Made by a program: the position numbers and the translations under genes. A DNA stretch of 22,377 bases from a virus, in the UHGV virus genome UHGV-0172060, one strand, 5' to 3'. The notes under the pieces were generated by a model. That model did no database searches. It was not told the origin of the DNA and worked only from the letters and a program-made list of their open reading frames with translations. Shown piece by piece: positions 3,877 to 7,873 of the stretch (positions are counted from its first letter, which is position 1; the number at the start of each line of letters is the position of its first letter).

Positions 3877-4239
3877 TTAATGACCTGCTGCGCGGAGTTT
3901 TCCGTCAGGTTCACCGGCAAGAGTCAGTAATTGTCCCTGGTCTTCCTGCAGAATAGTCAGGCGACCACCGCGATTGACATACATCGGCGTTTCGGTGGTG
4001 TCTTCTTCGGAAATTTTCCCGCGGTTAGTCGGGCGAACATATGAGAGTTTGTGTTTGATTTTCACACGGTTCTCATCAAATGGTTCGATTTCCAGGTTGA
4101 GTGAGACCTTACCTTTGGTTTTCGTGTTCATCACACCGGAAGCGACTTCACTGAGAACTGCGCCGATTTTGGTTTCAAATACGCCGCCGTCCAGCTCCCC
4201 GATAAATTCCTGCACGTTGGTACTGCGTTCGCTAGCCAT
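3877..4239 (-). CDS. hypothetical phage protein (YfdP-like), first gene of the leftward early operon
   Basis: Start placed at MASERS (ATG 4237-4239) with GAGGAG 7 nt upstream; the ORF-track start at 4470 lies inside a highly structured leader with no SD. In-frame ATGATG at 4253-4258 is an alternative start. Confidence 0.6.
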   Translation of the reverse strand: MASERSTNVQEFIGELDGGVFETKIGAVLSEVASGVMNTKTKGKVSLNLEIEPFDENRVKIKHKLSYVRPTNRGKISEEDTTETPMYVNRGGRLTILQEDQGQLLTLAGEPDGKLRAAGH

Positions 4240-4376
4240 TTTGCTGCTCCTCATCATATCGACCCTGCAAGGTCGGTTGGTTTCTCCACAAAACAGAGAA
4301 GAACACCTGCGGTGGTAGCCGCCCGGATGGATTGGGTTATGAGCCCGTCGTCCGGTGATGCTCTTCTCTGTTTTGT

Positions 4377-4422
4377 AAAAAGAGCGGTACCAGCCGGAAG
4401 CAAGTGTACAAACTGGTACCGC
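4377..4422 (-). terminator. intrinsic-terminator-like hairpin in the early-left leader (tL-like), followed by a boxA-like motif
   Basis: On the minus strand: gcggtaccag-(17 nt loop)-ctggtaccgc followed by tcttttta. The sequence CGCTCTTTTTACAA resembles rrn/lambda boxA (GCTCTTTAACAA). Confidence 0.4.
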
Positions 4423-4825
4423 CAAAGCAGTGGCTGTTGTGGTGGGGTTGTCACTCAGGCGTATGGTCAACCTGACAATCCGGTGTCCTCAACGGGGAAA
4501 GAGTAACCCCGCCATACTTACCGCCGCGCCATTTCGCGGATTACCACAACGCTGAGAGCACTTAGCCAGTTACGGCACCACACTTTGTCGAGGTTCCATA
4601 AATGCCCTCATCGTTGCACCCTGGTCTCTTCCCAGGCGTCAAACCGAATCGCCACGCTGGTTAGGCGTCTTATCAGCATCCTCATTGACTTGCACATTCC
4701 GGCTACCTGGTTTGTTTGCCCGAGCAAGGAGTGGATTGTCCCCTTTAACGTCCCCAGACCGCTAACGACGCATGTGCCATACGCCGTGTTACAACCAAAT
4801 TTTGTCAGGACCTTGTTTGTTGGTC

Positions 4826-4890
4826 TGGAAAGAAAGATAAAATGAAATTGCGTAACGTGCAAGTATTTTATTGCGAGATATGCAATAGCG
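4826..4890 (-). promoter_or_regulatory. PL-like early-left promoter with two repressor operators (ATTGC-N7-GCAAT type)
   Basis: Minus strand: -35 TTGCAC, 17-nt spacer, -10 TATCTT. Operator palindromes at 4870-4886 (ATTGCGAGATATGCAAT, perfect arms) and 4847-4863 (ATTGC-N7-GCAAG); the same half-sites recur in the cI/cro intergenic region. Confidence 0.5.
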
Positions 4891-4921
4891 TGAGTAATGA
4901 AAAGCCACCTTCTGGTGGCTA
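4890..4921 (-). terminator. rho-independent terminator downstream of the repressor gene (tImm-like)
   Basis: Minus strand: agccacc-agaa-ggtggct followed by tttcatt, about 20 nt after the repressor stop at 4942. Confidence 0.6.
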
Positions 4922-4941: not shown

Positions 4942-5634
4942 TTAATTGTGTCGCTTAAGGGTTTGTGACTGACTGATTAAGACCTTTCCAAAGACCATAA
5001 ACCGGTGTTCGTTTTCGCTGGTAATTCCCCATTCGCGGTAAATCTGATTATCAGAAATTACCAGCAGTTTATCAGGTATCATTTGCAGTCGTTTGACGTA
5101 AATTTTATCATCAAAACCAAATACATATATACCATCCCCATCAAACTGATTGATACTGATATCAACGAAGATGAGATCTCCTGGCTCAATGGTTGGACAC
5201 ATACTGTCCCCACGAACGTTGATAACTTTAATGTGATTTGCTGGTCGTCCACCAAACATCGATACAGCATTATCAGTTCTGTATTCAATGGCATGAATCA
5301 CATCAATGACATCACCGCCCTGGATAAGGCCATTTCCCGCACTGGCACTGACATCCAGCATTTCAATACGGAATACATCCTTCACCTGCGCAACATCCTC
5401 ACTAATACTGTTTTTACATACAGTATTACTTTTGAGGTCTGAGGTAAAGAGATCAGCAATATCAACACCTAAGCTCCTGGCAATATTACTCAGGGCTTGT
5501 TCAGTGAATTGTTTCTGCTTACCTGTTTCGAGGCGCGAGATATTCGCCGCATCCACTCCTATTGCTTCAGCGAGATCGGCGATTTTCATGTTCTTCGCCT
5601 GGCGAAGTTGTCTGACTCGATTTCCTATGTTCAT
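4942..5634 (-). CDS. cI-like prophage repressor (XRE HTH + S24 LexA-like peptidase domain)
   Basis: N-terminal HTH (RQLRQAKNMKIADLAEAIGVDAANISRLETGK); C-terminal S24 signatures (GDSMCPTI serine, VKRL lysine); divergent from a cro-like gene. Confidence 0.9.
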   Translation of the reverse strand: MNIGNRVRQLRQAKNMKIADLAEAIGVDAANISRLETGKQKQFTEQALSNIARSLGVDIADLFTSDLKSNTVCKNSISEDVAQVKDVFRIEMLDVSASAGNGLIQGGDVIDVIHAIEYRTDNAVSMFGGRPANHIKVINVRGDSMCPTIEPGDLIFVDISINQFDGDGIYVFGFDDKIYVKRLQMIPDKLLVISDNQIYREWGITSENEHRFMVFGKVLISQSQTLKRHN

Positions 5635-5731
5635 GCGTTTATTACATTTCTTTATTGCGCGTTAAGCAAATCAACTTGCGCAAAATATTTGCGTGAAATA
5701 ATATGCTCATCACGCAATATGTGGAGGTTAT
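5635..5731. promoter_or_regulatory. divergent PRM/PR promoter region with operator repeats (OR-like)
   Basis: Sits between the divergent repressor and cro-like starts. Candidate PR: -35 TTGCGC, 17 nt, -10 TAATAT. Operator-like sites ATTGCGCGTTAAGCAAA (5654-5670), TATGCTCATCACGCAAT (5702-5718) and palindrome CGCAAAATATTTGCG (5677-5691). Confidence 0.6.
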
Positions 5732-5992
5732 ATGCAATCACCATTACGGAATGTGCGTAAGGCGCACGGATTTACTTTGCAGCATGTTGCTGCGGGCGTT
5801 CAGGTCAATCCAGCGACGCTGAGTCGTATTGAAAGACTGGAACAAATTCCATCTATCGATCTTGCAGAACGTCTGGCCAATTTTTTTAAGGGTGAAATCA
5901 GCGAAATGCAGATTCTTTATCCGGCACGTTTTCAATCTAGCCAAAACCAGAATGGGTTTAAACCACAGGAACAGGAGGTAAGCCGTGGGTAA
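5732..5992 (+). CDS. Cro-like XRE-family HTH regulator
   Basis: 86-aa HTH protein (GFTLQHVAAGVQVNPATLSRIER) transcribed divergently from the repressor; GGAGG SD. Confidence 0.8.
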   Translation: MQSPLRNVRKAHGFTLQHVAAGVQVNPATLSRIERLEQIPSIDLAERLANFFKGEISEMQILYPARFQSSQNQNGFKPQEQEVSRG

Positions 5993-6536
5993 GCATCATT
6001 GGAAAGTGGAAAAACAACCTGAGTGGTACGTGAAAGCTGTCAGAAAAACTATCGCGGCATTGCCAGGGGGTTACGCTGAAGCTGCTGACTGGCTGGATGT
6101 AACAGAGAACGCTTTATTCAACCGCCTTCGTGCAGATGGCGATCAGATTTTCCCGTTGGGATGGGCAATGGTTTTACAGCGTGCTGCTGGCAATCACCAC
6201 ATTGCGGATGCTGTCGCACAGTCTGCTGGTGGGGTGTTTGTATCACTTCCTGAAATTGAGGAAGTAGAGAACGCCGATATCAACCAGCGCCTGCTGGAGG
6301 TCATTGAACAGATCGGCAGTTATTCCAGACAGATTCGTTCAGCAATTGAAGACGGGGTGGTGGAACCACACGAGCAGGCAGCAATTAACGACGAGCTGTA
6401 CATGTCAATTTCGAAGCTGCAGGAGCATGCAGCACTGGTCTACAAAATCTTTTGCGCTCCAGAAAAGAGTGACGCCCGCGAGTGTGCAGCTCCGGGCGCC
6501 GTGGCGTTTTGTGTCTGTGGAGAAACTAACGCATGA
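5985..6536 (+). CDS. CII-like/YdaT-family early regulatory protein (putative)
   Basis: 183-aa ORF with GTG start and AGGAGG SD, overlapping the end of cro; its position after cro matches the CII/YdaT slot of lambdoid and Rac-type prophages. Family assignment tentative. Confidence 0.5.
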
Positions 6537-6924: not shown

Positions 6925-7873
6925 TCTTGCATGCCGTATTGGTCTGAATGAGGCAATTGTGTTGCAGCAGCTTCATTACTGGCTGAATGAAACGAATTCA
7001 GGCACTGAGCATGGCGGAATTCGCTGGGTTTATAACACGACAGAACAGTGGCTGGAGCAGTTTCCGTTCTGGTCAGAGTCCACTCTGAAACGCACATTTG
7101 CAAGCCTGAAATCACTTGGGGTTTTGCGTCGCGAGCAACTCAATAAATCGAAGCGTGACATGACCAACTTCTACACGATCAACTATGAAAGTGAGCTTTT
7201 AGAAGAGGTCAAAGTGAACGAATCGATCAGGTCAAAATGCACTTCTCCATCGGGTCAAAGTGACCTGATGGATGGGCGCAAAATGACACGATCCATTGGT
7301 TCAAAACGACACGCTGTCATCGGGTCAAAATGGCCCAATGATCTTACAGAGAATACAACAGAGATTACTACAGAGAATAAAACCTCTTCTCGTCCGGACG
7401 CTTCGCAACCGGACACGCAAACGGCTGAACAGGAGTTTTTTACTCGCCATCCTGATGCGGTTGTATTCAGCCCTAAAAAGCGCCAGTGGGGAACGCAGGA
7501 TGATTTGACCTGCGCACAGTGGCTCTGGAAAAAAATCATCGCCCTGTACGAGCAGGCCGCCGAATGTGACGGCGAGGTGGTTCGTCCCAAAGAACCGAAC
7601 TGGACAGCCTGGGCAAACGAAATTCGCCTGATGTGTGTGCAGGATGGTCGTACTCACAAACAAATCTGCGAGATGTACAGCCGCGTCAGCCGCGATCCGT
7701 TCTGGTGCCGTAACGTGCTCAGCCCGTCGAAGTTGCGGGAAAAATGGGATGAGCTTTCCCTGCGCTTATCGCCGTCCGTCAGCACGCACACAGAAAAACG
7801 TGAAGACCCGTACTTCAAAGCCAGTTACGACAACGTGGACTACAGCCAGATCCCGGCAGGATTCAGGGGGTGA
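6881..7873 (+). CDS. replication initiator protein (lambda O-like) with origin iterons embedded in the coding sequence
   Basis: N-terminal DNA-binding-like region ([26 protein letters not shown]); central low-complexity linker encoded by direct repeats; GAGGT SD. Confidence 0.7.
   Translation: MSLLMTSQPIVINRDLACRIGLNEAIVLQQLHYWLNETNSGTEHGGIRWVYNTTEQWLEQFPFWSESTLKRTFASLKSLGVLRREQLNKSKRDMTNFYTINYESELLEEVKVNESIRSKCTSPSGQSDLMDGRKMTRSIGSKRHAVIGSKWPNDLTENTTEITTENKTSSRPDASQPDTQTAEQEFFTRHPDAVVFSPKKRQWGTQDDLTCAQWLWKKIIALYEQAAECDGEVVRPKEPNWTAWANEIRLMCVQDGRTHKQICEMYSRVSRDPFWCRNVLSPSKLREKWDELSLRLSPSVSTHTEKREDPYFKASYDNVDYSQIPAGFRG
7205..7390. repeat. candidate replication origin: about five iterons at ~23-bp spacing plus three 12-bp ACAGAGA A-rich repeats
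   Basis: Iterons (a/g)TC(g/a)GGTCAAA(a/g)TG centred near 7210, 7233, 7256, 7302, 7326; then ACAGAGAATACA / ACAGAGATTACT / ACAGAGAATAAA at 7346, 7358, 7370. Confidence 0.65.

What the first reader, a model, noticed from the sequence alone, without database searches (positions are those of the whole stretch)
4240..4830. Early-left leader of ~590 nt with no N-like gene but dense RNA structure
The repressor gene is followed by its own terminator, then a PL-like promoter with two operators, exactly as in lambda. Where lambda has nutL and N, this window has ~590 nt with no plausible ORF (only peptides of 29 aa or less). On the transcribed (minus) strand the leader contains a terminator-like hairpin with U-tract (4377-4422), an adjacent boxA-like motif (CGCTCTTTTTACAA), and a perfect 15-bp inverted repeat (4288-4302 with 4362-4376) closing a 59-nt structured loop only ~38 nt upstream of the first start codon. 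There is also no room for a nutR-type site on the right, since cro overlaps the next gene. Together this suggests an RNA-based, N-independent antitermination or processing element (HK022 put-like, or an RNase III site), or a prophage-encoded sRNA.
Basis: partly seen in the sequence, partly recalled or inferred. Interest (0 to 1): 0.7.

Follow-up and report, generated by a model that had tools for sequence, protein, structure and literature searches.

The report
Modular structured-RNA cassette in prophage leader
The ~590-base gene-free stretch after this prophage's early-left promoter is a string of conserved, independently exchangeable structured RNAs: a relative of the DicF small-RNA precursor, two RNase III-type stems, and an unannotated double-pseudoknot RNA that also occurs in phage P1, epsilon15-like phages, Shiga-toxin phages and about a third of complete E. 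coli genomes.

Summary
Window 4240-4830 has no credible gene, lies downstream of an operator-flanked PL-type region, and is read on the minus strand. It is not one leader but an array of modules, each shared separately with unrelated phages.

- **X** (4792-4614): a ~180-nt RNA with two pseudoknots and clear compensatory changes. It has no Rfam match and I found no paper on it. It occurs in 1833 of 5426 complete E. coli genomes, in P1 (between tRNA-Ile and ban) and in Uetakeviruses (before tRNA-Arg).
- **LS** (4616-4547): a long stem.
- **M2** (4550-4436): a tRNA-shaped pseudoknotted module. In K-12 Qin its homologue is the body of the published RNase III-generated 190-nt DicF species.
- **Terminator hairpin** (4422-4377): it sits in the DicF slot but is not a DicF family member.
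- **M4** (4381-4281): a hairpin with a 25-bp stem.

[quoted passage not shown] The boxA-like motif is the terminator tail and is not conserved. Nothing resembles HK022 put. A put-like function for X remains an untested rival. Function of X: unknown.

The parts
4896..4920 (-). Intrinsic terminator of the repressor gene (AGCCACC-AGAA-GGTGGCT followed by a T run).
   Evidence: Terminator scan; coordinates.
4832..4885 (-). PL/OL region. Two operators TTGC-N7-GCAA lie at 4885-4871 and 4862-4848. The candidate -35 is TTGCAC (4862-4857) and the candidate -10 is TATCTT (4839-4834). The inferred transcription start is near 4827.
   Evidence: The operator motif is enriched and flanks the repressor on both sides. 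The hexamers are weak, and the promoter is inferred from position. The mosaic break with other immunity types falls at about 4805.
4614..4792 (-). RNA X core, about 180 nt.
- Hairpin Pa (CGGCG...CGUCG). Its loop GCACAU pairs with AUGUGC 75 nt downstream (pseudoknot 1, invariant).
- Helix UCUGG/CCAGG enclosing variable hairpins.
- A variable hairpin.
- Hairpin Pg (ACGC-CUAACCA-GCGU). Its loop AACC pairs with GGUU (pseudoknot 2).
- Hairpin Ph (4637-4618) with loop GAAGAGA.

A conserved 5' extension reaches 4800.
   Evidence: My covariance model R1 gives a single hit of 202.8 bits. 94% of cells are paired against 31-44% in slid controls, and 17 pairs change on both sides against 3-6. For pseudoknot 2 the partners are C-G in 93 sequences and A-U in 13, with no mismatch among the 106 sequences that match the motif. 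No Rfam match.
4547..4616 (-). Long stem LS (CAACGAUGAGGGCAUU ... AAGUGCUCUCAGCGUUG) with a variable apical insert. Predicted RNase III site that separates X from the next module.
   Evidence: The helix is present in most of 186 unique homologue flanks, with many compensatory arm variants. The Qin counterpart contains the position 190 nt upstream of the DicF 3' end, which is where the RNase III-dependent 5' end lies.
4436..4550 (-). Module M2, a tRNA-shaped four-way junction. It is closed by GUUGUGGU/ACCACAAC and has a kissing pseudoknot GUAUGG/CCAUAC. It is homologous to the body of the 190-nt DicF species of K-12 Qin and to part of P1's annotated 'dicF-like region'.
   Evidence: Alignments A4 and A6. 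94.5% of cells are paired against 33-56% in slid controls, and 9 pairs change on both sides against 0-4. In Uetakeviruses the same slot holds tRNA-Arg(UCU).
4377..4435 (-). Short spacer, 10-bp hairpin (4422-4413 with 4393-4384, 19-nt loop) and U-tract 4383-4377. It occupies the position that DicF holds in Qin. Predicted intrinsic terminator and 3' end of an RNA of about 180 nt (M2 plus hairpin).
   Evidence: It shares UUUGGCGGUAYCAGUUU with DicF. The Rfam DicF model does not match it. 66 of 70 unique M2 loci carry a terminator-like hairpin at this position.
4281..4381 (-). Module M4, a branched hairpin with a nearly perfect stem of about 25 bp. Predicted RNase III-type processing or translational-control site.
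   Evidence: z = -5.6. 98% of cells are paired across 36 unique homologues, but only a few pairs change on both sides.
4237..4275 (-). Small hairpin (4275-4260), Shine-Dalgarno GAGGAG (4252-4247) and the yfdP start codon (4239-4237).

Best explanation
The interval is the 5' untranslated part of the early-left (PL) transcript, and it works as a polycistronic precursor of noncoding RNAs.

Transcription starts just left of the operators and first makes RNA X. RNase III then cuts the long stem LS. This frees X (about 220-270 nt) and creates the 5' end of an RNA of about 180 nt, made of the tRNA-shaped module M2 plus the hairpin in the DicF slot. That RNA ends at the hairpin's U-tract. Polymerases that read through transcribe M4. 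The 25-bp stem of M4 swallows the U-tract and is a second RNase III-type site just upstream of the yfdP ribosome-binding site. The leader therefore both delivers stable RNAs and sets how much yfdP-yfdQ-yfdR message is made and translated.

**Shown here**
- The modules exist and are structured.
- Their strand.
- Their modular distribution among unrelated phages.
- The homology of M2 to the DicF precursor.

**Inferred**
- The cleavage sites in this phage.
- The stability of the products.
- Partial termination.
- Everything about what X does.
For: **Modularity.** BLAST breaks the interval into pieces that are shared separately with SfV/ST64B, with PPompW/Evi and an Actinobacillus phage, and with phiV10/P1/SPN1S.

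**Strand.** X is always co-oriented with the adjoining tRNA: 24 nt after tRNA-Ile(CAT) in P1-like loci and about 150 nt before tRNA-Arg(TCT) in Uetakevirus loci. Conserved helices contain G-U pairs that would be A-C mismatches on the other strand.

**Structure.** Covariation supports X, M2 and LS. M4 has z = -5.6.

**Processing precedent.** In K-12 Qin, M2 lies directly 5' of dicF at about 92% identity to the window. DicF exists as a 53-nt species with an RNase E-dependent 5' end and a 190-nt species with an RNase III-dependent 5' end. Both terminated (ydfABC-dicF) and read-through transcripts were seen (PMC10448788). Counting 190 nt back from the DicF 3' end lands inside the 3' arm of the Qin long stem.

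**Conserved grammar.** Across more than 200 loci the order is long stem, then a module closed by GUUGUGG...CCACAA (a real tRNA, M2 or another tRNA-shaped element), then a hypervariable hairpin with a U-tract.

**No gene.**
Against: - I have no transcript data for this phage or for X in any phage. The promoter hexamers are weak.
- X plus LS does not fold better than shuffled sequence (z = -0.7). The case for X rests on covariation and on invariant junctions.
- The homologues are few lineages spread by recent horizontal transfer, so shuffle-based significance is inflated.
- Alignment A7 was fitted to the model.
- M4 hardly varies, so covariation for it is weak.
- RNase III cleavage is mapped only in Qin, and I placed it by transcript length, not by nucleotide.
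- The window's DicF-slot hairpin lacks the DicF 5' seed and may be only a terminator.
- The explanation leaves the function of X open.
Confidence: 0.55

Rival explanations
1. X is an RNA-based processive antiterminator. It would work like HK022 put without being related to it: the nascent X binds the transcribing RNA polymerase, so that it reads through the DicF-slot terminator and escapes Rho on the long untranslated array. That would replace the missing N protein.
For: - X is promoter-proximal in PL leaders of N-less lambdoids with at least four different immunity regions: the window, mEp390 and several IMG/VR loci, where by eye it begins within about 0-45 nt of the predicted start.
- In lambdoid and Uetakevirus contexts an intrinsic-terminator hairpin lies between X and the first protein gene.
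- Its unpaired junctions are invariant while its hairpins vary, as expected for an RNA that docks on a conserved host machine.
- SfV and mEp460_4F5 carry a small ORF where the window has X plus M2.
Against: - No similarity to the HK022 immunity region.
- There is exactly one copy per locus and none downstream of PR, whereas HK022 needs putL and putR (PMC9378689).
- In P1, X lies after the M2 terminator and directly before ban, so it cannot act on that terminator.
- dicB-type operons have the same terminator without X, yet read-through transcripts are observed.
- The Uetakevirus unit is a very short operon.
- The small ORFs that replace X are of unknown function or are HTH proteins, not known antiterminators.
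Confidence: 0.15
2. X and the tRNA-shaped modules are trans-acting decoys or sponges. Once released from the array early in infection, they would titrate a host factor or a defence nuclease that recognises tRNA or rRNA features.
For: - Real tRNAs, elements with canonical D- and T-arm sequences and an encoded CCA, and M2 all occupy the same slot.
- One module insert copies a 16S rRNA hairpin, matching 25 of 29 bases of positions 254-282 and hitting an SSU rRNA model at E = 2.7e-6.
- In a Klebsiella phage the cassette is followed by a Tad2-like anti-Thoeris gene.
- The Pg loop of X displays (A/C)ACCA, which resembles a tRNA 3' end. This last point is my own reading and was not tested.
Against: The evidence is purely contextual. 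The window leader shows no similarity to the rrn operon. The ACC of the Pg loop is engaged in pseudoknot 2. No binding partner is known.
Confidence: 0.15
3. The interval is only a regulatory spacer. It would be an attenuator terminator plus an RNase III hairpin controlling yfdP, while the rest is recombination debris carried along by mosaic exchange.
For: The boundaries of the pieces coincide with mosaic breakpoints. Close relatives such as SfV do without X and M2. K-12 CPS-53 lacks the whole leader.
Against: Debris would not keep invariant junction nucleotides together with compensatory stem changes across Punavirus, Uetakevirus and several lambdoid lineages. Nor would it persist in 1833 of 5426 complete E. 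coli genomes at up to 100% coverage.
Confidence: 0.08
4. The conserved sequence encodes a small protein on one strand or the other, or it acts as single-stranded DNA, for example as a priming or packaging signal.
For: Stop-free stretches of up to 111 codons exist. Some phage records annotate ORFs here. Two overlapping ORFs match PHROG families of unknown function.
Against: - PGAP calls no gene and there is no Pfam match.
- Indels fall in all mod-3 classes.
- Variation is concentrated in stems as compensatory pairs.
- The stronger PHROG match (phrog_3651) covers only the last 75 of 162 profile positions, as expected for ORFs called by chance over conserved DNA.
- Constant co-orientation with tRNAs and placement in transcribed leaders argue for RNA.
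Confidence: 0.04

Closest known systems
DicF precursor of the dicBF operon (Qin prophage, E. coli K-12)
   Same: M2 is about 92% identical to the sequence directly 5' of dicF. The order is the same: long stem, M2, spacer, hairpin with U-tract, all inside an operon repressed by a phage repressor. Published RNase III (190-nt species) and RNase E (53-nt species) processing, and partial read-through, provide the mechanistic model.
   Different: The window's hairpin lacks the DicF 5' seed and is not matched by Rfam RF00039. In the window the cassette sits at the very start of the PL transcript and is preceded by X rather than by ydfABC. I found no description of M2 as a conserved, pseudoknotted, tRNA-shaped module.
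HK022 putL/putR antiterminator RNAs
   Same: Position just downstream of PL in a lambdoid phage without N. An RNA with invariant unpaired nucleotides.
   Different: put is about 70 nt with two stem-loops and is present in two copies, putL and putR (PMC9378689). X is about 180 nt with two pseudoknots, occurs once, has no detectable similarity, and is also found next to tRNAs in P1 and Uetakeviruses.
Lambda N-leader (nutL plus the RNase III hairpin upstream of N)
   Same: A long double-stranded hairpin a few tens of nucleotides upstream of the first early-left start codon. From my own knowledge, RNase III cleavage there modulates N translation in lambda.
   Different: There is no N gene and no conserved boxA. 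The Ph loop GAAGAGA only recalls the nutL boxB loop GAAGA, again from memory. I found no protein with an arginine-rich motif.
GOLLD and ROOL large ornate RNAs of phages and prophages
   Same: Complex, conserved structured RNAs of unknown function, reported mostly in phages or prophages and often next to tRNA genes. This rests on my own knowledge and on PMC12286853, which I saw only listed.
   Different: X is much smaller, is confined to Enterobacteriaceae phages in my searches, and matches neither Rfam family.
tRNA-like processing signals that release small RNAs (herpesvirus MHV68 tRNA-miRNA units, MALAT1-mascRNA, bacterial tRNA 3'-ETS sRNAs)
   Same: A tRNA or tRNA-shaped element placed directly upstream of a small regulatory RNA, so that RNA-processing enzymes define the small RNA's 5' end. 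This is an analogy from my own knowledge.
   Different: For DicF the mapped enzymes are RNase III and RNase E, not RNase P or RNase Z. Recognition of M2 by RNase P is untested.

Membership tests
DicF sRNA (Rfam RF00039) | Scores above the family's gathering threshold with the covariance model. | tested here: not met
   No hit in the window even at E <= 10, including a 111-nt search around the hairpin. The same model scores 76-77 bits on PPompW and Evi.
DicF sRNA (Rfam RF00039) | Located directly 3' of the conserved M2 module and ending in a hairpin with a U-tract. | tested here: met
   Alignments A4 and A6. Shares UUUGGCGGUAYCAGUUU with DicF.
DicF sRNA (Rfam RF00039) | 5' single-stranded seed (UUUCUGGUGACG...) used for target pairing. 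| tested here: not met
   About 19 nt that include the seed are absent from the window in alignment A6.
HK022 put antiterminator RNA | About 70 nt made of two stem-loops, with sequence similarity among put elements. | tested here: not met
   blastn of the leader and model R1 find nothing in the HK022 immunity region. X is about 180 nt with two pseudoknots.
HK022 put antiterminator RNA | One copy after PL and one after PR. | tested here: not met
   Single R1 hit in the window and one per locus in 100 further loci.
HK022 put antiterminator RNA | Suppresses termination by binding RNA polymerase. | not testable with these tools
   Needs reporter assays or in vitro transcription.
Lambda-type nut site (boxA plus boxB with an N protein) | Conserved single-stranded boxA. 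| tested here: not met
   The boxA-like string is the terminator's 3' stem plus U-tract. GCUC varies to GCCC, GACC or GUCC in homologues.
Lambda-type nut site (boxA plus boxB with an N protein) | An N-like protein encoded after PL. | tested here: not met
   No CDS in the interval. The first gene, yfdP, has no Pfam match and matches only PHROGs of unknown function.
RNase III substrate | Roughly two helical turns (about 20 bp or more) of nearly perfect double-stranded RNA. | tested here: met
   M4 has a stem of about 25 bp. LS has about 16 bp at its base with one mismatch.
RNase III substrate | Cleavage demonstrated. | tested here: inconclusive
   Cleavage is shown only for the Qin counterpart of LS. 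I placed it there from the length of the 190-nt species. It has not been shown for this phage or for M4.
tRNA | Recognised by ARAGORN or by the Rfam tRNA model. | tested here: not met
   No tRNA in the window. The tRNA-like relative L284 is not called either at E <= 0.1.
tRNA | Four-way junction closed by a terminal stem of 7-8 bp, occupying the position of a tRNA gene in related arrays. | tested here: met
   M2 structure. The same slot holds tRNA-Arg(UCU) in Uetakeviruses, and in other loci elements with D- and T-arm sequences and a CCA.
Intrinsic (Rho-independent) terminator | G+C-rich hairpin followed directly by a U-tract. | tested here: met
   10-bp stem followed by UCUUUUU. The 19-nt loop is longer than usual, which is why the scan missed it.
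Any Rfam 15 family (for X and M2) | Covariance-model match. | tested here: not met
   Zero matches at gathering thresholds over the whole window, and only chance-level matches at E <= 10.

The most novel reading that the evidence does not exclude
X founds a new class of phage-encoded, double-pseudoknotted RNAs. The '(long stem - module)n - sRNA' arrays would be a general noncoding operon of temperate enterobacterial phages. RNase III stems would release interchangeable cargo RNAs: real tRNAs, tRNA mimics, rRNA-hairpin mimics, X, and hypervariable DicF-type sRNAs. These would act in trans on host machinery or on defence systems early after induction. That would be a bacterial-virus counterpart of herpesvirus tRNA-miRNA cassettes.
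Probability: 0.3. Interest if true: 0.85.

Novelty: new variant of a known kind. Interest (0 to 1): 0.68.

Why it matters
Phage P1, lambdoid and Shiga-toxin prophages, and E. coli itself are among the most heavily annotated genomes. Even so, a 180-nt RNA with invariant junctions and two pseudoknots sits unannotated in about a third of complete E. coli genomes and in P1 between trnI and ban.

The analysis also changes how DicF should be viewed. DicF appears to be one variant in the last slot of a conserved, modular cassette. The other slots hold tRNAs, tRNA-shaped RNAs and X, and the RNase III processing stems are conserved through compensatory changes. The conserved body of the 190-nt DicF species would be a folded module in its own right.

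If X acts on RNA polymerase, it would be a second, unrelated solution to N-independent antitermination. If it acts in trans, it would be a new phage effector RNA. Either possibility can be tested directly with existing phages: P1, phiV10, mEp460 and cdtI.

Tried and rejected
- **Rfam 15.** I searched the whole window, the interval at E <= 10, and the hairpin alone. Nothing relevant came up.
- **ARAGORN.** No tRNA in the window.
- **HK022 put.** I fetched the HK022 immunity region and searched it with blastn (word size 7) and with model R1. No match.
- **boxA.** Rejected, because the motif is part of the terminator and is not conserved.
- **N-like gene in relatives.** SfV orf33 and the mEp460_4F5 122-aa ORF occupy the place of X plus M2. 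They are a PHROG of unknown function and an HTH_17 protein.
- **Coding potential.** No Pfam match. The stronger PHROG hit is truncated (75 of 162 profile positions), and both matched families are of unknown function. Homologue lengths are not multiples of three.
- **Host RNA mimicry by the window leader.** No similarity to the rrnH operon.
- **K-12 CPS-53 as a source of expression data.** It lacks the leader.
- **Literature.** I searched by sequence strings, yfdP, DicF with structure terms, DicF with tRNA-like, P1 ban, and structured phage RNAs. Nothing describes X or M2 as a module. The P1 genome paper and one 2026 preprint were not available.
- **Genome-contig scan.** The stringent pattern returned only 3 species representatives (Escherichia, two Citrobacter), so it says little about host range.
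- **Folding energy.** It does not support X plus LS (z = -0.7).
Full report
**Setting.** The window is an SfV/mEp460/cdtI-type lambdoid prophage of E. coli. An identical stretch lies in strain MB53. There NCBI's PGAP annotation gives yfdR, yfdQ and yfdP on the minus strand, an XRE/S24 repressor (window 4942-5634, minus), a cro-like HTH gene (5732-5992, plus) and ymfL (5985-6536). It places no CDS between yfdP and the repressor.

**Checking the observation.**
- The repressor gene ends in a hairpin with a U-tract at 4920-4896.
- Two TTGC-N7-GCAA palindromes lie at 4871-4885 and 4848-4862, with a third at 5655-5669 between repressor and cro. That makes 4 matches in 22 kb against 0.85 expected. 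The PL/OL reading is therefore sound.
- The promoter hexamers are weak. My best candidate is TTGCAC, 17 nt, TATCTT, which would put the start near 4827.
- The terminator-like hairpin is real: 10 perfect pairs (4422-4413 with 4393-4384), a 19-nt loop, then UCUUUUU.
- The 15-bp inverted repeat is exact. It is the core of a stem of about 25 bp, 4381-4357 with 4307-4281.
- The whole minus-strand leader folds with z = -4.0 and the plus strand with z = -3.4. Most of the signal comes from M4 (z = -5.6). M2 plus the terminator gives z = -1.6, and X plus LS gives z = -0.7.
- No credible gene is present. There is no Pfam match. The two PHROG matches are to families of unknown function, and the stronger one covers only the last 75 of 162 profile positions. 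Homologue lengths fall in all mod-3 classes.

**The leader is a mosaic.** A sensitive BLAST against phage genomes does not return one homologous leader. It returns separate pieces.
- Window ~4276-4425 is shared with SfV, SfII, ST64B and phiNP.
- Window ~4428-4550 is shared with PPompW phages, Evi and an Actinobacillus phage.
- Window ~4544-4800 is shared with phiV10, TL-2011b and typing phage 9. Sub-segments of this piece are shared with P1, P7, SPN1S, a Klebsiella phage and mEp390.
- Phages with other immunity regions (cdtI, Stx2c phages, Ayreon, 2H10) stay 98% identical up to window 4805 and then diverge. This sets the 5' edge of the conserved RNA.

**Module X (4792-4614).**

*Contexts and strand.* In P1 the homologous stretch lies between tRNA-Ile(CAT) and ban. 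In phiV10 it lies directly upstream of tRNA-Arg(TCT). In both it is on the tRNA's strand. A pattern scan of IMG/VR hit its 120-locus limit. Together with loci already in hand this gave 92 unique variants in three contexts: P1-like, 24 nt after tRNA-Ile; Uetakevirus, about 150 nt before tRNA-Arg; and lambdoid PL leaders without a tRNA. All adjoining tRNAs are co-oriented with X. A second scan for a divergent clade again hit the limit. All 100 loci searched scored 103-143 bits with my covariance model R1.

*Structure.* On 39 sequences, 94% of cells pair against 31-44% when partners are slid. Seventeen pairs show changes on both sides against 3-6 in the slid controls. The fold is:
- Hairpin Pa, with many compensatory variants. 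Its loop GCACAU pairs with AUGUGC about 75 nt downstream. This pseudoknot is invariant, so covariation cannot test it.
- A helix UCUGG/CCAGG that covaries and encloses variable hairpins.
- A variable hairpin.
- Hairpin Pg, with at least ten complementary arm variants. Its loop (A/C)ACC pairs with GGU(U/G): C-G in 93 sequences, A-U in 13, and no mismatch among the 106 sequences that match the motif.
- Hairpin Ph, with loop GAAGAGA.

*Conservation pattern.* The unpaired junctions are invariant even in the Salmonella, Klebsiella and mEp390 versions, while the hairpins vary freely. That is the pattern of an RNA with a specific tertiary fold or a specific binding partner.

*Distribution and annotation.*
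- R1 finds exactly one copy in the window. It finds none in HK022 and none in dicB-type loci.
- Rfam 15 has no match.
- BLAST finds X in 1833 of 5426 complete E. coli genomes, with 554 places on plasmids. It is not annotated in any of the 12 listed E. coli records.
- It also occurs in P1, P7, D6, SJ46, phiV10, TL-2011b, cdtI, and Stx2a and Stx2c phages.
- I found no paper that describes it.

**Long stem LS (4616-4547).** Directly after Ph, most homologues have a long helix. Its arms differ between lineages but stay complementary. Examples are CAACGAUGAGAGC/GCUCUCAGCGUUG, CAACAGGUAAGAGCAUUG/CAGUGCUCUUUCCGUUG, CAACCAAAAGAGC/GCUCUUUUUGUUG and GUAGUGAAGAGAGCA/UGCUCUCUUCACUAC. The apical inserts are hypervariable.

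**Module M2 (4550-4436) and the link to DicF.**
- In PPompW and Evi phages the M2 homologue lies immediately 5' of an Rfam-confirmed DicF, on the same strand, inside a dicA-ydfABC-dicF-dicB type operon.
- K-12 Qin has the same arrangement, at about 92% identity to the window.
- P1's annotated 'dicF-like region' overlaps an M2 copy.
- M2 folds as a four-way junction closed by GUUGUGGU/ACCACAAC. It has a kissing pseudoknot GUAUGG/CCAUAC, which becomes GCAUGG/CCAUGC in P1. 94.5% of cells pair against 33-56% in slid controls, and 9 pairs change on both sides against 0-4.
- Ragunathan et al. 2023 (PMC10448788), confirming Faubladier et al. 1990, showed two DicF species. The 53-nt RNA has an RNase E-dependent 5' end. 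The 190-nt RNA has an RNase III-dependent 5' end. They also saw both terminated and read-through operon transcripts.
- Counting 190 nt back from the DicF 3' end gives L242 946-951, inside the 3' arm (939-955) of the Qin long stem that precedes M2. The 190-nt DicF is therefore M2 plus DicF, and the long stem is the RNase III site.

**The DicF slot (4435-4377).** Across 100 unique M2 loci, M2 is followed by a hypervariable stretch and then a GGCGG...CCGCC-type hairpin with a U-tract. In the unbiased subset, 66 of 70 loci have such a terminator-like hairpin. DicF is one variant of this slot. The window's variant keeps UUUGGCGGUAYCAGUUU and the hairpin, but it lacks the DicF 5' seed and is not matched by RF00039. 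It may be a divergent sRNA or only a terminator.

**Module M4 (4381-4281).** The U-tract and the following ACAAAACAGAGAAGAGCAUC pair with GGUGUUCUUCUCUGUUUUGUGGAGAAA. This closes a branched apex. 98% of cells are paired across 36 unique homologues, but variation is low and only a few pairs change on both sides. The stem ends about 42 nt before the yfdP start codon. A small hairpin and the Shine-Dalgarno GAGGAG follow it. From my own knowledge, this geometry recalls the RNase III hairpin of the lambda N leader.

**General grammar.**
- The divergent loci show arrays built as long stem plus module, sometimes repeated, ending in the hypervariable hairpin with a U-tract.
- The module slot is closed by GUUGUGG...CCACAA. 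It can hold tRNA-Arg(UCU) (19 of 120 loci), M2, a second common tRNA-shaped type (present in mEp460), or elements with canonical AGCUCAG and GGUUCGAAUCC arms and an encoded CCA.
- X itself can follow a Qin-type long stem.
- Ph-like hairpins with GAAAGA or GAAGAGA loops, preceded by UGAC, recur before long stems. Ph may therefore belong to the stem unit rather than to X. I saw these last two points by eye in the output.

**Mechanism.**

*Best supported (confidence 0.55).* The PL transcript is a polycistronic noncoding precursor.
- RNase III cuts LS. This releases X and creates the 5' end of an RNA of about 180 nt (M2 plus hairpin) that ends at 4377.
- Read-through transcripts form M4 and continue into yfdP.
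- Shown: the modules, their structures, their strand, and the homology to a processed precursor.
- Inferred: the cleavages in this phage, the stability of the products, and partial termination.

*Function of X.* It is unknown.
- A put-like role (0.15) fits X's promoter-proximal place in N-less lambdoids and the terminator downstream of it. It fits poorly with the single copy, the P1 arrangement, and read-through in dicB operons that lack X.
- A trans-acting decoy or sponge role (0.15) is suggested only by context: tRNA mimics in the same slot, a 16S-like insert in one module, and anti-defence cargo after one cassette.
- The spacer-only (0.08) and coding or DNA-level (0.04) readings are unlikely.

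**Comparison with known systems.**
- M2 plus the hairpin is a new member of the DicF-type locus, but not of the DicF RNA family.
- LS and M4 resemble RNase III sites. This is mapped only for the Qin counterpart of LS.
- X belongs to no described family. It shares its position with put, and its phage-and-tRNA context with GOLLD and ROOL, but nothing else with either.

**Verdict.** The feature is real and is more than a leader. I rate it a new variant of a known kind: a DicF-type processed cassette extended by an undescribed RNA and by tRNA-shaped modules. There is a substantial chance that X is something new.

Noticed in passing
L250 4600-4646 (IMG/VR contig 2681813308_000001): The variable insert of a tRNA-shaped module copies a 16S rRNA hairpin. 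It matches 25 of 29 bases of E. coli 16S positions 254-282 and hits an SSU rRNA model at E = 2.7e-6. Modules in these arrays may display mimics of host RNA.
   Followed up: partly
L130 1135-1656 (Klebsiella phage ST512-KPC3phi13.3); L004 1853-2224 (phiV10): The protein gene downstream of the X-tRNA-Arg cassette is variable cargo. It is a Tad2-like anti-Thoeris protein (PF11195, 4.2e-26) in the Klebsiella phage and a Phage_gp49_66 protein in phiV10.
   Followed up: partly
L284, L267, L355 (downstream of X and the long stem): These elements have tRNA-like D-arm (AGCUCAG) and T-arm (GGUUCGAAUCC) sequences, an acceptor-like stem UUGUGGU/ACCACAA and an encoded CCA. Their anticodon region is greatly enlarged. 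L284 is not matched by the Rfam tRNA model at E <= 0.1, and ARAGORN reported no tRNA within 600 nt of X in loci of this type.
   Followed up: partly
L002 5215-5403 (+) (phage mEp460, right of ymfL): Rfam finds isrK (67 bits) and C4 antisense RNA (83.6 bits) in tandem ahead of the Rha antirepressor gene. The window has no such hits.
   Followed up: no
L003 5303-5404 (P1 record 68791-68892): P1's annotated 'dicF-like region' is in fact the 3' half of an M2 copy plus a different terminator hairpin. The Rfam DicF model does not reach its threshold there.
   Followed up: partly
window 4312-4503 (+) and 4257-4454 (-): ORFs over the conserved noncoding modules match PHROG families of unknown function (phrog_3651, phrog_33599). 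These families were probably built from ORFs called by chance over conserved RNA genes.
   Followed up: partly
L247, L255, L269, L271 (flanks of X): Hairpins with the form UGAC-stem-GAAAGA-stem recur many times around the arrays, before each long stem and in tandem runs. They could be sites for a protein. The loop recalls the lambda boxB loop GAAGA, which I cite from memory only.
   Followed up: no
window 7124-7138: A fourth exact match to the operator pattern TTGC-N7-GCAA lies 1.5 kb to the right of the immunity region, inside the replication-gene area.
   Followed up: no
L137 2400-2696 (SfV orf33); L138 2203-2571 (mEp460_4F5): Close relatives carry a small ORF plus its own terminator exactly where the window has X plus M2. 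One is 98 aa and matches phrog_3195 (unknown function). The other is 122 aa with an HTH_17 domain. The first slot after PL is an exchange hotspot.
   Followed up: partly
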